Below, piece by piece: positions 24,001 through 64,000 of a stretch of 64,000 nucleotides of DNA (its first letter is position 1; every line of letters starts with the position of its first letter). The stretch is from Octopus sinensis (lineage: Eukaryota). The stretch covers positions 9,486,001 to 9,550,000 of the forward strand of contig NC_043023.1 in the NCBI RefSeq assembly GCF_006345805.1, read 5' to 3'. The position numbers were made by a program.

Positions 24001-27000
24001 ATGTATATGTATATATATACATACACACATACATATATACTATAAATATATATTCACATATATATGTATTTTCTCCATGTAAACTACAGACAAAATAGTT
24101 TTTGAATTTTAACCGTTGTCTGCGAAAATTGTGACACACCACACACACACATATATTATATATATATATATATATATATATATATATATATATATATATA
24201 TATGTTTAATTGGATAAGCGTGTATATGTGCGCGTGTGTAAATGCGACTATATGATTGCTTGTGCCTGTAAAAAATGCATAAGTAGTTTTATATTTCATT
24301 TATGTATCTAAGAGTGTGTATCCATTCACCGTTACACGGTAGCGAGAGGGACATGTACATATATATATATATATCTTCCTCTCAACACCTCACAAGCGGT
24401 GTAACGGTGTATGGATACAATGTCTTAGATGCATAGATGCTAACAATTGTAAACCTACTTATAAACGTGTGAACGTATGTTTATGTACAGATATGTACAT
24501 ACACTTGTGTTGTATACACACAGACAACCTTCGACAGAGTAAGAGTCATATATACAACTTATGTGTATATACAACATATATGTATCCACATATCAGTACA
24601 TGAACATACATTCACATTTTCAAGTACATACATATACACAGAAACGTCTGTACACATACTTACAAACGTCTACAACCTTACATACCTACATAACTACATA
24701 AATACATATGAACATACATATATGGATAGGCATGTACACATATACATACGCTCATCCTTACATGCACACATACGCACACATACATACATATATACATGCA
24801 TACATACATACATACATACATAAATACATACATACAACATACATACATACATACATACATACATACATACATACATACATACATACATTCATACATGTAA
24901 ATGCATACTAAAGAATATTACAGCCAAATAAAGAAATTTTGACCTCAGAACTCTCTGAATTCAATAAAACAGTGGGCCCACTAAGTGTTTGCAGTGCCAG
25001 TTCTCTTATCAGCATTTCGGCCGCTTGATTGGACGCTTGATAAGATCCATTGATGTGAAAACCCAAAAGATACTACAAGCACACATAATTTTTCACATAA
25101 ACTGTGACGTAGCCCTCCCTTACCTAGAACGAAAGCAAATCGGCAGAAGCTTAACGTCGATCCGAAATGTCTTTGAATGTCGCATCATATCTCTTGTGTA
25201 ACATCTTTTACCACCGAGTGTCAAAGTGCATCTCTTTGCCAAATGTGCATAGATGAGGCTGATAACATCATAAGACTTGGAAGGCAGCTCCTTGAGCCAC
25301 ACTCTGTCTGATAACCTAGAATACATGGCGAAAGATGTCACACGAGTCTATTGCAACTTATTATCAGATGAAAGGATGAGCCAATATGAGCAGCAGACTA
25401 TGCATCGATATGTTAGTAGAAAGTTAACATCGATCATCAATATTGTTTATCATGTACCAACAGCCGGATTACTATCTCCCACTTTGAAGAGTATGCATTT
25501 GCAATCCAGGAACAGGAAATATCAACCAAGAACCTGATGCACAAAAGCGATAGATATGTGGGACAAACCGTAAAATATGACAAACGGATGCAGAATTTGT
25601 GGATTTCACACTGAGGATATCACCCACATTAAAGCACTTGTCCGAAAATGTCATCTACCGATGAGACATGTCATTAGGTAAGCCACGATGTACTACGATG
25701 TAATCTACTCCATCTGAAGGATAATCCGGAAGACAAAGAAATAAACCGTCCAATATAGTAGAAGCCACAGCCTCTCAAAATGAAAAGGAACGTACCAGTG
25801 AAAATCTAAAAAAATGTAAGCTCGGCAGACCTCATATAATGATTTGGGATAGAAAGAGAAACCGTGCACATGGTGGAAATTAGCTGCCCAGCAGATGATG
25901 TTAACGTAAAACGGAAGATTAGGGAAAAAGAGAGCACCTATGCTGAACTATTGCGAAATCTACAGTTACTCTGTCCAGAATACAAGTTCATATCCATTGT
26001 TAATTACAACGAGGTGGGTCTCAATCCCTGCTTTATAGCATTACAGAGAGGGTGAATTATCCTTTGTATAGATGCACAAATTCCAATGGGGTAGATGTAA
26101 ATTTCCAGGAAATGGAGATGAATTTCATATTCACAGGCGATAAATTTTTCAATGGGTGAACACAATGAGGTAGGATCAATCTCCTGTTATATGATTAGGT
26201 ATTGCCACATTAATCACATTACTGCTATTCACAAGAGGCTGTAGCTATTTAACTCTTAAAGGCTGAAGGGTTTCTAGAGCGGCCAAGAATAGAGAAGGGA
26301 ATATTCTTGGCCGCTCTAGAAAGCCCTTCAGCCTTTAAGAGTTAAATAGCTACAGCCTCTTGTGATAGCAGTATGTGATTAATGTGGCAAATACCTAATC
26401 ATATACCAAGGATTGATCTACCTCATTGTGTTCAACCATTGAAAAATTTATGCTGTGAATATGAAATTCATCTCCATTTCTCTGGAAATTTACATCTACA
26501 CCATTGGAATTTGTGCATCTATACAAAGGATTAATTCACCCTCTCTGTAATGCTAATAAGCAGGAATTGAGACCCACCTCGTTGTAATTAACAATGGGAT
26601 AAATTTGTCTTCTGTGAGTATATAATCCCTCATCATATCTATGGAATGCATATGGATTAGGTCACCTTCTCTGTGATGCTATCAAAACTTTTTTTAAATT
26701 CTGTGATAAGACTGTACATCATCTTTAAAGAACTAGATGAACTTTAGAAATCTGTTTATGTTACTTAATTATCTACATTACTTCATGAGTATAGCCTCAA
26801 ACACTAGGATGTCTAGAGAACTCACATGTATTTTAGCTGATGAGTACGGGGACTCGTTTATATGCTGTAATCTTTGCAATTTTATTAAAACCTGTCCTTG
26901 TATGAAACGATCGTACTAAAAACCTATCCATTCTTGTTGCTTCTTTCTCGCGTATATATATATATATATATATATATATATATATATGTACACACACCAC

Positions 27001-63000: not shown

Positions 63001-64000
63001 CCACTGTTTACGATGTTTAACTTTTCGATAGAAAAATCCATTTTTCGTCACCAGTCACAAGTCTATACAAAAAAGGTGAAATGAGTTCGCGAGAATGGAG
63101 AGAAGAGCAGATGTCAACTCGGGATTTGCGGCTGCTTTCGGGCAGTTCATGAGGCACCTATTTTCCACGTTTAAGAACCTTTCCAAGTTGTTGAAGAAGA
63201 CGATGAACAGTTGTATGGTTTGAACTAAGCTTTATTGCCAATTCTTCAAACGATATTGCATGATTTTCTTCTAGGAGCTTATCATCAAGCTCAACTGGAC
63301 GTCCTGTTCAATCTTCATCTTCAAGGCTGAAATCTCCACTTATGAATTTTGCAAACCATCTTCTGCAAGTTCTTTCATTCTAGCATTCTTGTATGTTTCG
63401 AGTCGTTTCGGCTGCAGAATTTCCCTTTTTGTACTCATAAAGCATTGTGTGTCTTAAATACTCGTTGGATACTTCAATGTTAGAAAGGGTTTTAATTAAC
63501 GAAATTTCATTTCTATTATTCTGTAAAATAATATTTAATTAGTTTAAATGTACACAAATTTATTAAAAATAATTTTTAATTCCATTAGACATTCTAATTT
63601 ACTATTAAATTCCATTCAATTTTAAAAGCTGTAAAATCGGACAGAACTTATGGGATGATCTGATAGACGAACACAAACGCATGCAATGAGACACAGACAG
63701 TCACATATATACACATATATACACATATACTCACAAATATTTCTATTCGGATCTATGCAATTATGATTATCATCATAATCACCAGGATCATCTTCCTCAT
63801 AACCATTACCATTTTCTTTCCAGGATTATGATTATTAATCCTTATCTATACTAATAATTACTTATGTTAACATCATCCTTATAATCATCATTATCATTAT
63901 CAACAGTGATGTTATCACCATCGTTGGCAGCAATCCCACTATGATCAACATTACCAGCAATGTCAAAGCCCACACAACCACATAATCACCATCATTACTA

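What the first reader, a model, noticed from the sequence alone, without database searches (positions are those of the whole stretch)
26950..64000. Intragenic ~12.7-kb tandem amplification adding 7 LRRs per unit
Seen: three near-identical units that contain only LRR exons, with no recognisable signal peptide, cap, TM or stop exon. Inference: these are expansions inside one gene rather than gene copies, so protein length would vary with copy number, as with LPA kringle repeats. Unit-specific substitutions suggest the copies are real.
Basis: partly seen in the sequence, partly recalled or inferred. Interest (0 to 1): 0.8.

Follow-up and report, generated by a model that had tools for sequence, protein, structure and literature searches.

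The report
Amplified LRR exon block, octopus receptor locus
A 12.7-kb block of seven leucine-rich-repeat exons from an octopus-specific adhesion-receptor gene family is repeated head to tail almost three times, but some copies are broken and no gene start lies upstream, so a longer protein is not shown.

Summary
From 26,953 to the window end, a unit of 12,780 / 12,726 nt is repeated 2.9 times. Each full unit holds seven LRR exons, 20 in all on the + strand, and nothing else coding except transposon debris. Every exon has the 72-nt, phase-2/phase-2 cassette format, so any number could be spliced in frame.

The exons belong to the octopus-specific LRR–adhesion-GPCR family. The closest protein is O. 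bimaculoides 'decorin-like isoform X2' (exon D matches 22 of 23 residues). The 3' end of another family member lies at 1.4–5.5 kb on the same strand.

- 3 of 20 exons are disabled: 70-nt and 71-nt frameshifted exons in unit 1, and a GT-to-AT donor in unit 2.
- Exons have diverged as fast as introns since the amplification.
- No signal-peptide/LRRNT exon exists in the 21 kb upstream.
- No database protein carries these exons.

Units differ by 0.2–0.6% outside microsatellites, in a mosaic pattern.

I read it as a real, very young segmental amplification of cassette LRR exons. Whether it lengthens a protein is unproven, and it may be a decaying, 5'-untethered exon array. An assembly artefact cannot be excluded without reads.

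The parts
26953..27090 (.). Left edge of the array: a compound (TA)n(CA)n(TA)n microsatellite. Sequence upstream of it is unrelated to the end of the unit.
27561..40340 (+). Unit 1 (12,780 nt, counted from exon A to exon A). It is the most diverged copy and holds two frameshifted exons.
40341..53066 (+). Unit 2 (12,726 nt). It is consensus-like, with only 3 private substitutions. Its exon E has lost the GT donor.
53067..64000 (+). Unit 3, cut by the window end after 10,934 nt. Six exons are visible; the seventh would lie beyond 64,000.
27561..27630 (+). Exon U1-A, 70 nt. It is 2 nt shorter than its copies, which shifts the frame. ag/gtaagt kept.
28896..28967 (+). Exon U1-B, 72 nt, intact.
30829..30900 (+). 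Exon U1-C, 72 nt, intact.
32354..32425 (+). Exon U1-D, 72 nt, intact.
33022..33092 (+). Exon U1-a, 71 nt. One A is missing from an A-run, which shifts the frame.
35009..35080 (+). Exon U1-d, 72 nt, intact.
39228..39299 (+). Exon U1-E, 72 nt, intact.
39640..39900 (.). Junction of units 1 and 2: compound (CT)n(TA)n(CA)n(TA)n microsatellite.
40341..40412 (+). Exon U2-A, 72 nt, intact.
41716..41787 (+). Exon U2-B, 72 nt, intact.
43569..43640 (+). Exon U2-C, 72 nt, intact.
45103..45174 (+). Exon U2-D, 72 nt, intact. 22 of 23 residues match P0001 residues 159-181.
45779..45850 (+). Exon U2-a, 72 nt, intact.
47767..47838 (+). Exon U2-d, 72 nt, intact. Identical to exon D.
51950..52021 (+). Exon U2-E, 72 nt. 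It is followed by ATAAGT instead of GTAAGT, so the splice donor is lost.
52360..52630 (.). Junction of units 2 and 3: the same compound microsatellite.
53067..53138 (+). Exon U3-A, 72 nt, intact.
54427..54498 (+). Exon U3-B, 72 nt, intact. It carries three amino-acid-changing differences from U2-B within 17 nt.
56278..56349 (+). Exon U3-C, 72 nt, intact.
57742..57813 (+). Exon U3-D, 72 nt, intact.
58417..58488 (+). Exon U3-a, 72 nt, intact.
60205..60276 (+). Exon U3-d, 72 nt, intact.
39907..41578 (+). A-module of unit 2 (exon A plus a Tc1/Tc3 fragment). It is the older paralogue of the a-module at 45340-47007, with 4.0% substitutions outside simple repeats.
44385..45338 (+). D-module of unit 2. 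It is the older paralogue of the d-module at 47086-48002, with 2.2% substitutions.
40708..41013 (+). Tc1/Tc3-type transposase HTH fragment in the A-B intron. A second copy lies at 46134-46355 in the a-d intron.
50484..51102 (-). Mos1/mariner transposase fragments in the d-E intron, present in every unit.

Best explanation
This is a real and very recent tandem segmental amplification of a 12.7-kb genomic block. At least 2.9 copies are visible and the right end is unseen.

What the block is:
- It carries seven cassette-type LRR exons in the order A-B-C-D-a-d-E.
- The exons derive from a member of the octopus-specific LRR–adhesion-GPCR family.
- The array lies downstream of another member of that family.

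Inferred history, in three layers:
1. Single LRR exons with about 40 nt of flanking intron were duplicated into five types.
2. An A..D segment was re-duplicated and lost its B and C copies, giving a and d (2-4% substitution divergence).
3. The whole 7-exon block was amplified by unequal recombination at the compound microsatellite, or at the 1.7-kb A-type module, that bounds it. Exchange between copies followed (0.2-0.6% divergence, mosaic).

Coding consequences:
- All exons are 72 nt with phase-2 borders, so each intact unit could add 168 residues in frame.
- In this sequence the array is not tied to any 5' exon.
- Its exons have drifted like introns since the amplification.
- Three exons are already disabled.

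I therefore take it to be an untethered or partly decayed exon array: a pseudogenic segment, or at best facultative cassette exons. It is not a cleanly expanded coding region.

Shown: the repeat, the exon format, the family assignment, the defects, and the absence of 5' and other domains in the window. Inferred: the recombination mechanism and the functional status.
For: - Repeat and period.
- Exactly 20 exons: (20 of 24 hits at E <= 2e-29). 17 of 20 have 72 nt and ag/gtaagt.
- Only the phase-1-offset frame is open in all seven exon types. Stops appear in the frames imposed by the 70-nt and 71-nt exons.
- Family assignment: the exon D ORF hits only P0001, 'decorin-like isoform X2 [Octopus bimaculoides]'. 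Per-exon matches are D 22/23, C 18/22, B 15/21, a 16/23 to P0001 and E 16/20 to P0002.
- Relatives of P0001 are LRR + GPS + 7tm_2 proteins named 'adhesion GPCR G6-like'.
- The upstream neighbour at 1397-1788 is 96-97.6% identical to P0123 residues 877-1007.
- Neutral drift: substitutions outside microsatellites are 0.47%, 0.23% and 0.62%. Exon substitutions are 3, 3, 5 against 2.4, 1.0, 2.7 expected. Short indels are 2 in exons against 25 in unmasked introns.
- The older A/a and D/d pairs also show no exon deficit: 4 observed against 2.9 expected, and 0 against 1.6.
- No 5' or other family domain in the window.
- The edge and both unit junctions sit in the same compound microsatellite.
- Mosaic divergence: a 2.5-kb stretch has 0-1 differences among all three units, next to stretches where unit 1 or unit 3 is the outlier.
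Against: - The power of the drift test is low, with only 1-2.7 exon substitutions expected. At this age, 17 intact exons are expected under either reading.
- The two frameshifts could be consensus errors. One is a lost A in an A-run. The neighbouring, well-conserved 7TM exon also needs one more A in a 7-A run to read like its O. vulgaris relative.
- Against that, about 22 single-base deletions are private to unit 1 while units 2 and 3 have only a few each. That looks like divergence of one copy rather than uniform error.
- A non-canonical 5' exon between 5.5 and 27 kb could have escaped homology searches. Family models with odd N-termini exist (P0123).
- Annotated family proteins do carry LRR block repeats: P0126 has 46/48 identity at an offset of 72 aa, P0121 has 44/48 at 192 aa. 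Isoforms differ by whole LRRs. So expressed expansions of this kind occur in the family.
- The absence of a matching database protein means little if this species has no annotation in the database.
Confidence: 0.5

Rival explanations
1. This is the reader's view: a functional intragenic expansion. The three units lie inside one expressed LRR–adhesion-GPCR-family gene. Its 5' exon is unrecognised or upstream, and its LRRCT, GAIN and 7TM exons lie beyond 64,000. Each unit adds 7 LRRs to the ectodomain. Damaged exons are skipped, which keeps the frame because all exons are symmetric. Protein length then follows copy number.
For: - The uniform 72-nt phase-2 format with strong GTAAGT donors holds in 19 of 20 exons.
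- The units hold no terminal or cap exons.
- Family proteins have 2-22 LRR motifs, with near-identical multi-LRR blocks.
- Isoform pairs differ by exactly 24 or 72 residues.
- The family is reported as expressed, clustered and positively selected in octopus (PMC6408891, passages).
- The exon order C-D-a is colinear with P0001 residues 135-205, and d-E-A with P0002 residues 159-221.
Against: - No family 5' exon lies in the 21 kb between the upstream gene's last mapped exon (5487-5515) and exon U1-A.
- There are two frameshifted exons and one lost donor, with stops in the shifted frames.
- There is no deficit of exon changes.
- No protein with these exons was found.
Confidence: 0.3
2. This is an assembly artefact. 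A smaller number of copies, or two haplotypes of one or two copies, was over-expanded into three tandem units by the assembler.
For: - Inter-unit divergence is only 0.2-0.6% outside microsatellites, which is in the range where repeat resolution fails.
- The middle unit is consensus-like, with 3 private substitutions against 40 and 21.
- 2.5 kb is identical in all three units.
- A likely homopolymer miscall sits in the neighbouring gene.
Against: - Three copies cannot come from two haplotypes of one copy.
- There are no N gaps.
- Each unit has private substitutions, private indels and different microsatellite lengths, up to 93 nt.
- The outlier unit changes along the unit, a recombination-like mosaic.
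- The left edge is a clean junction to unique sequence.
Confidence: 0.1
3. This is a reservoir of alternative cassette exons. The array is kept as a set of interchangeable LRR exons that are used combinatorially, by alternative splicing, to diversify a receptor ectodomain.
For: - The exon format is symmetric.
- Family isoforms differ by whole LRRs.
- The brown-alga ROCO genes are a precedent: 72-bp phase-2 LRR exons with alternative splicing (PMC11378527, passages).
Against: - The copies are nearly identical. D and d are identical in all 6 copies and C in all 3, so they offer almost no diversity.
- There is no transcript evidence.
- No 5' exon was found.
Confidence: 0.07

Closest known systems
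Octopus bimaculoides 'decorin-like isoform X2' (P0001, 456 aa; name as given by NCBI)
   Same: It is the closest protein to exons A, a, B, C and D (D 22/23, C 18/22, a 16/23, B 15/21). Its consecutive LRRs at residues 135-205 are colinear with window exons C-D-a.
   Different: P0001 has a signal peptide, an LRRNT-like Cys cluster, about 8-9 single LRRs, a capping repeat and a Cys-rich C-terminal region. None of those non-LRR parts is in the window. P0001 has no near-identical block repeat.
Octopus LRR–adhesion GPCRs ('adhesion G-protein coupled receptor G6-like': P0123, P0126, P0121). These are probably the octopus-specific adhesion-GPCR expansion 'group 3' of PMC6408891.
   Same: They have the same LRR type. 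The window's upstream neighbour is 96-97.6% identical to the last 7TM exon of P0123. Exon E is closest to P0002, and next to P0123. Several members carry multi-LRR block repeats.
   Different: These proteins have GPS plus 7tm_2 after the LRRs. The array shows neither within the window. Equating the family with 'group 3' of the paper is my inference from its description (LRR in 5 of 22 sequences, a Death domain in one). The paper's tables were not seen.
LPA kringle IV-2 copy-number repeat (recalled; no call)
   Same: It is a multi-kb genomic unit made of whole, frame-preserving exons, repeated head to tail at very high identity. That could make protein length follow copy number.
   Different: In LPA the repeat lies between known 5' and 3' exons, is transcribed, and varies among individuals. 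None of these is shown here, and 3 of 20 exons are disabled.
72-bp phase-2 LRR exon arrays of brown-alga ROCO genes, the phase-2 LRR exons of gonadotropin receptors (PMC11378527, passages), and the 90-bp phase-2 LRR exon arrays with intragenic repeat units in Tetrahymena (PMC6564038, passages)
   Same: One LRR per exon, identical exon length, all introns in phase 2, and growth by tandem exon or block duplication. In ROCO genes the exons are alternatively spliced.
   Different: Those arrays have short introns and diverged exons inside complete genes. Here the unit is 12.7 kb with 0.6-4.1-kb TE-bearing introns, the copies are more than 99% identical, and the gene context is incomplete.
Lamprey VLR germline cassettes (recalled; no call)
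   Same: Arrays of LRR-coding pieces lie next to an incomplete LRR gene.
   Different: VLR cassettes are diverse and lack splice sites, and are copied in somatically. Here the pieces are near-identical canonical exons with ag/gt borders.

Membership tests
Leucine-rich repeat (typical 24-residue type; Pfam LRR_8) | Each piece matches the LRR profile | tested here: inconclusive
   6 of 7 single-exon translations hit LRR_8 at E 3e-4 to 2.6e-3 and 17.9-20.9 bits, below the 27-bit cut-off. Exon E gives no hit at E <= 0.05. One repeat alone cannot reach the cut-off, and the joined model was not built.
Leucine-rich repeat (typical 24-residue type; Pfam LRR_8) | 24-residue period with the L..N.I..I core, and close similarity to LRRs of proteins that pass the Pfam cut-off | tested here: met
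   All 20 exons carry the motif. 18 of the 20 are 72 nt, which is 24 codons counting the split ones; the other two are 70 and 71 nt. Exon D matches P0001 at 22/23 residues, and P0001 scores 181 bits on LRR_8.
Octopus LRR–adhesion GPCR family | GPS/GAIN motif and 7tm_2 domain downstream of the LRRs in the same gene | tested here: not met
   None lies downstream of the array within the window. The region beyond 64,000 is unseen, so this holds for the window only. The only 7tm_2 exon (1397-1788) lies upstream and belongs to another gene.
Octopus LRR–adhesion GPCR family | Signal peptide plus LRRNT-type Cys cluster upstream of the first LRR | tested here: not met
   tblastn of 28 named family proteins found nothing in 1-27,560 better than E = 0.57. 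The Cys-pattern scan hit only microsatellite translations.
Octopus LRR–adhesion GPCR family | LRR sequences closest to family members rather than to other LRR proteins | tested here: met
   The only hit to the exon D ORF among 5.8 billion proteins (lengths 80-2000 aa) is P0001. Relatives of P0001 with E < 1e-60 are all Octopus proteins, many with GPS and 7tm_2.
Intragenic copy-number repeat of the LPA KIV-2 kind | The unit consists of whole exons whose summed length keeps the frame | tested here: met
   7 x 72 nt = 504 nt per intact unit, with all borders in phase 2. Unit 1 departs from this, with 70-nt and 71-nt exons.
Intragenic copy-number repeat of the LPA KIV-2 kind | The repeat lies between 5' and 3' exons of one gene | tested here: not met
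   No 5' exon was found in the window. The 3' side is beyond the window, so that part is not testable.
Intragenic copy-number repeat of the LPA KIV-2 kind | Copy number varies among individuals, and transcripts contain the repeated units | not testable with these tools
   No reads, no other individuals and no transcript data are available.
VLR-like LRR cassette bank | Diverse cassettes without splice sites, used by copy-choice | tested here: not met
   The cassettes have ag/gtaagt borders and are near-identical between units.
Unprocessed pseudogene / gene-fragment duplication | Disabling mutations and lack of constraint in sequence that keeps its exon-intron structure | tested here: inconclusive
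   3 of 20 exons are disabled. Exon changes are not fewer than intron changes. The expected counts are small and two defects could be consensus errors.

The most novel reading that the evidence does not exclude
The array is the live, copy-number-polymorphic ectodomain of an octopus-specific adhesion GPCR. Individuals would carry different numbers of 7-LRR units. Damaged or surplus cassette exons would be skipped in frame. Receptor length and binding surface would then vary between animals and between isoforms. That would be an LPA-like or cassette-splicing source of diversity in a receptor family reported to be expressed in suckers, skin and the axial nerve cord.
Probability: 0.12. Interest if true: 0.7.

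Novelty: new member of a known kind. Interest (0 to 1): 0.35.

Why it matters
LRR domains are known to grow by duplication of symmetric one-repeat exons. This locus shows that process caught very early, at the scale of a 12.7-kb, 7-exon block. It sits in a receptor family that expanded only in octopuses.

If the array is expressed, it would be a candidate for heritable length variation in a sensory or adhesion receptor. If it is not, it shows how exon blocks are amplified and begin to decay, with the edge copy decaying first.

It also warns annotators. Gene models through such arrays depend on a few single-base calls in A-runs.

Tried and rejected
- **Cap motifs.** A regex search for LRRNT/LRRCT Cys patterns in six frames hit only translations of CA/TG microsatellites. 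Rejected.
- **Extra LRR exon upstream.** tblastn with the exon peptides and the nhmmer profile gave one marginal upstream hit, 25464-25507 at E 0.53. It lies inside a retroelement-like ORF. Rejected as an LRR exon.
- **Apparent exon conservation.** D = d while BLAST identity of the flanks is about 94%. This vanished when only substitutions outside simple repeats were counted: 0 observed against 1.6 expected, P = 0.21.
- **C-terminus of the upstream gene.** Only a 27-nt exon matching 8 residues of P0123 was found. The rest of the P0123 tail and the family's usual C-terminal motif were not found.
- **Rfam** at gathering thresholds: no match in the window.
- **Scan of 1.84 billion representatives** with the exon D ORF: 116 LRR proteins, none above 59% identity, and none looking like a model of this array. 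The unnamed hits were not fetched or used.
The 45-aa stop-to-stop ORF around the same exon was sent instead.
Structure and complex prediction were therefore not attempted.
- **Collections.** The orthologous loci in other Octopus genomes stayed unchecked.
- **Supplements** of PMC6408891 (scaffold positions and domain tables) could not be seen.
- **Literature.** Two full-text searches found no paper describing this array or LRR-exon block amplification in octopus adhesion GPCRs. This was not an exhaustive search.
- **Human sequence.** Nothing in the window was taken for human.
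Full report
**The repeat.** The window has no N and is AT-rich (about 34% G+C) and full of microsatellites. Self-BLAST shows that everything from 26,953 to the end is a head-to-tail repeat. A three-way MAFFT alignment of the units and the exon coordinates give periods of 12,780 and 12,726 nt. The third unit is cut at 64,000 after 10,934 nt, so 2.9 units are visible.

**The exons.**
- A motif scan, extraction of the exons with their borders and an nhmmer profile built from six exon types with 30-nt flanks agree. There are exactly 20 LRR exons, all on the + strand, in the order A-B-C-D-a-d-E per unit.
- In one search, 20 of 24 hits have E between 6.6e-36 and 2e-29. The other four have E 0.53-3.2.
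- Seventeen exons are 72 nt, preceded by a pyrimidine tract and AG, and followed by GTAAGT.
- In each, the first base completes a codon and the last two begin the next (phase 2 on both sides). Only that frame is open in all seven types.
- Any number of such exons can therefore be spliced together without changing the frame.
- Single-exon translations hit Pfam LRR_8 in 6 of 7 cases, at E 3e-4 to 2.6e-3. This is below the family cut-off, as expected for one repeat.

**What else is in a unit.** Nothing coding.
- Pfam on 78 ORFs of unit 2 finds a Tc1/Tc3 transposase fragment in the intron after exon A and another after exon a. It also finds Mos1-mariner fragments on the minus strand before exon E.
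- tblastn of 28 named octopus family proteins against the whole window gave 376 HSPs. Only 16 fall outside the 20 exons and one upstream 7TM exon, and the best of those has E = 0.57.
- So there is no signal peptide, N- or C-terminal cap, Cys-rich domain, GAIN/GPS or TM segment in the units.

**Layers of duplication.**
- The five exon types share about 40 nt of intron on either side, so they arose by duplication of single exons with their flanks.
- Inside each unit, the 1.7-kb A-module recurs as the a-module (4.0% substitutions outside simple repeats). The 0.9-kb D-module recurs as the d-module (2.2%).
- The end of the a-module corresponds to the point just before exon B, and the d-module starts where the D-module starts. 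This fits a re-duplication of A..D followed by loss of the B and C copies.
- The youngest layer is the 12.7-kb amplification. Outside microsatellites the units differ by 0.47% (1 v 2), 0.23% (2 v 3) and 0.62% (1 v 3).
- The differences are mosaic. Of 64 comparable sites, 40 are private to unit 1, 21 to unit 3 and 3 to unit 2. The outlier changes along the unit. One 2.5-kb stretch (unit-1 coordinates 34,931-37,428) has 0-1 differences among all three.
- The array's left edge and both unit junctions lie in the same compound (CT)n(TA)n(CA)n(TA)n microsatellite. Left of it, the unit-1 flank is unrelated to the unit end.
- Unequal recombination at this microsatellite, or between A-type modules, followed by exchange between copies, is the simplest mechanism. 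This is inference.

**Defects.** Three of the 20 exons are disabled.
- U1-A is 70 nt, with a 2-nt loss and one substitution near its 3' end.
- U1-a is 71 nt, with one A lost from an A-run.
- U2-E is followed by ATAAGT instead of GTAAGT.
- After the 70-nt exon, the next exon would be read in a frame with stops at codons 5-6. After the 71-nt exon, the next exon hits a stop at codon 16.
- Exon substitutions between units (3, 3, 5) are not fewer than the intron rate predicts (2.4, 1.0, 2.7). Short indels occur in exons (2 in 501 nt) about as often as in unmasked introns (25 in 10,159 nt).
- Four of the five clearly scored coding changes alter the amino acid. Three of them cluster in exon U3-B.
- The older A/a and D/d pairs give no exon deficit either.
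- So there is no sign of purifying selection since these duplications. With so few expected changes, though, the test is weak.
- Unit 1 has about 22 private single-base deletions, whereas units 2 and 3 have only a few each. That points to real divergence of the edge copy rather than uniform consensus error.

**Family and neighbourhood.**
- The 45-aa ORF around exon D finds one protein among 5.8 billion (lengths 80-2000 aa). It is P0001, 'decorin-like isoform X2 [Octopus bimaculoides]', 456 aa.
- Exon by exon, D matches it at 22/23, C at 18/22, a at 16/23 and B at 15/21. E is closest to P0002, 'chaoptin isoform X4 [O. bimaculoides]', at 16/20.
- Window exons C-D-a are colinear with P0001 residues 135-205. 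Exons d-E-A are colinear with three consecutive LRRs of P0002.
- The relatives of P0001 are almost all Octopus proteins. The long ones combine LRRs, a Cys-rich region, a GPS motif and a 7tm_2 domain, and are named 'adhesion G-protein coupled receptor G6-like'.
- Ritschard et al. 2019 (PMC6408891; I saw the listing and passages) describe an octopus-specific adhesion-GPCR expansion. Some members carry LRRs and one a Death domain. It is co-localised in the genome, with signs of positive selection and expression in axial nerve cord, suckers and skin. That this is the same family is my inference.
- At 1397-1788 (+) the window holds the last 7TM exon of such a gene. It is 96-97.6% identical to O. 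vulgaris P0123 residues 877-1007. A 27-nt exon follows at 5487-5515.
- The window therefore comes from an Octopus close to O. vulgaris. The LRR array lies 21 kb downstream of another family member on the same strand.

**Does the array sit in a gene?**
- Family proteins start with a well-conserved signal peptide and Cys cluster. Nothing like it lies between 5.5 and 27.5 kb, which is five times the longest intron of the unit.
- That interval is filled with retroelement fragments and tetranucleotide satellites.
- No protein carrying these exons exists in the searched sets. This counts only if the species is annotated there.
- On the other hand, intragenic LRR block duplication is clearly a habit of the family. 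Named members have 2 to 22 LRR motifs. P0126 has a 3-LRR block at 46/48 identity, P0121 an 8-LRR block at 44/48, and P0005 a 7-LRR offset at 39/48.
- Isoform pairs differ by exactly 72 or 24 residues, as expected for skipping of these symmetric exons.

**Verdict.**
These are not gene copies, and each intact unit could add 168 residues in frame. But an intact gene around them, expression and copy-number variation are not shown, and the sequence itself shows decay.
- My best reading (0.5) is a real, very young amplification of a cassette-exon block that is untethered or partly decayed.
- The functional-expansion reading keeps 0.3, an assembly artefact 0.1, and a splicing reservoir about 0.07.

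**Comparison with what is known.**
- One-LRR exons of fixed length in phase 2, multiplied in tandem, are documented in brown-alga ROCO genes and gonadotropin receptors (PMC11378527, passages) and in Tetrahymena (PMC6564038, passages).
- The LPA and VLR comparisons are from recall.
- This is therefore a new member of a known kind. It is notable for the size and youth of the unit and for the octopus-specific receptor family it belongs to.

Noticed in passing
window 1397-1788 (+): Last 7TM exon of an adhesion GPCR, 96-97.6% identical to O. vulgaris P0123 residues 877-1007. The reading that matches P0123 needs a frame change inside a run of 7 A at 1540-1546; one more A would restore it. This is either a homopolymer miscall or a real frameshift.
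   Followed up: partly
window 5487-5515 (+): A 27-nt exon with ag/gt borders matches 8 residues of P0123 right after the 7TM exon. The remaining ~100 residues of the P0123 tail and the family's usual C-terminal motif were not found anywhere in the window, so the end of the upstream gene is not located.
   Followed up: partly
window 1884-2188 and 14191-14755: Tandem copies (151 nt x 2 at 96%; 190 nt x 3 at 97%) of the same SINE-like element. From recall it resembles the abundant octopus SINEs. There is no Rfam match in the window.
   Followed up: no
window 12306-13074 and 21773-22392 (also 24778-24896): Large tetranucleotide satellites, (CATA)n with about 198 copies and (TATG)n with about 155 copies, in opposite orientation about 8.7 kb apart. 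They bracket a region with a reverse-transcriptase fragment (19628-20501).
   Followed up: no
window 6081-6809 (+), 19628-20501 (+), 25274-25700 (+): Retroelement remnants (zf-RVT, RVT_1, and an RT-tail-like ORF) fill the interval between the upstream gene and the array.
   Followed up: no
window 4736-5148 and 9093-9501: A 414-nt direct repeat at 95% identity, probably two copies of a dispersed element.
   Followed up: no
window 54479, 54491, 54495 (exon U3-B): Three amino-acid-changing differences from U2-B fall within 17 nt, while the other five visible exons of unit 3 are identical to their unit-2 copies. This may be a small conversion tract from another paralogue, or chance.
   Followed up: no
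units 1-3 (40341-51560 in unit-2 coordinates): The middle unit has only 3 private substitutions against 40 (unit 1) and 21 (unit 3). The 3' 4.3 kb of the unit has only 2 differences among all copies. This fits homogenisation of the inner copy, or a consensus effect of assembly.
   Followed up: partly
about 30 nt upstream of exons C, D and d (e.g. 45071-45102): tblastn alignments to P0001 run on into the intron. The acceptor region translates to something like the C-terminal half of the preceding LRR. This may be composition only, or a trace of how the exons arose.
   Followed up: no
window 28250-28440, 33690-33940, 41050-41220 and copies: Long (CAT)n/(ATC)n trinucleotide runs sit inside the Tc1-like fragments of the A and a modules. 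Their lengths differ between units.
   Followed up: no
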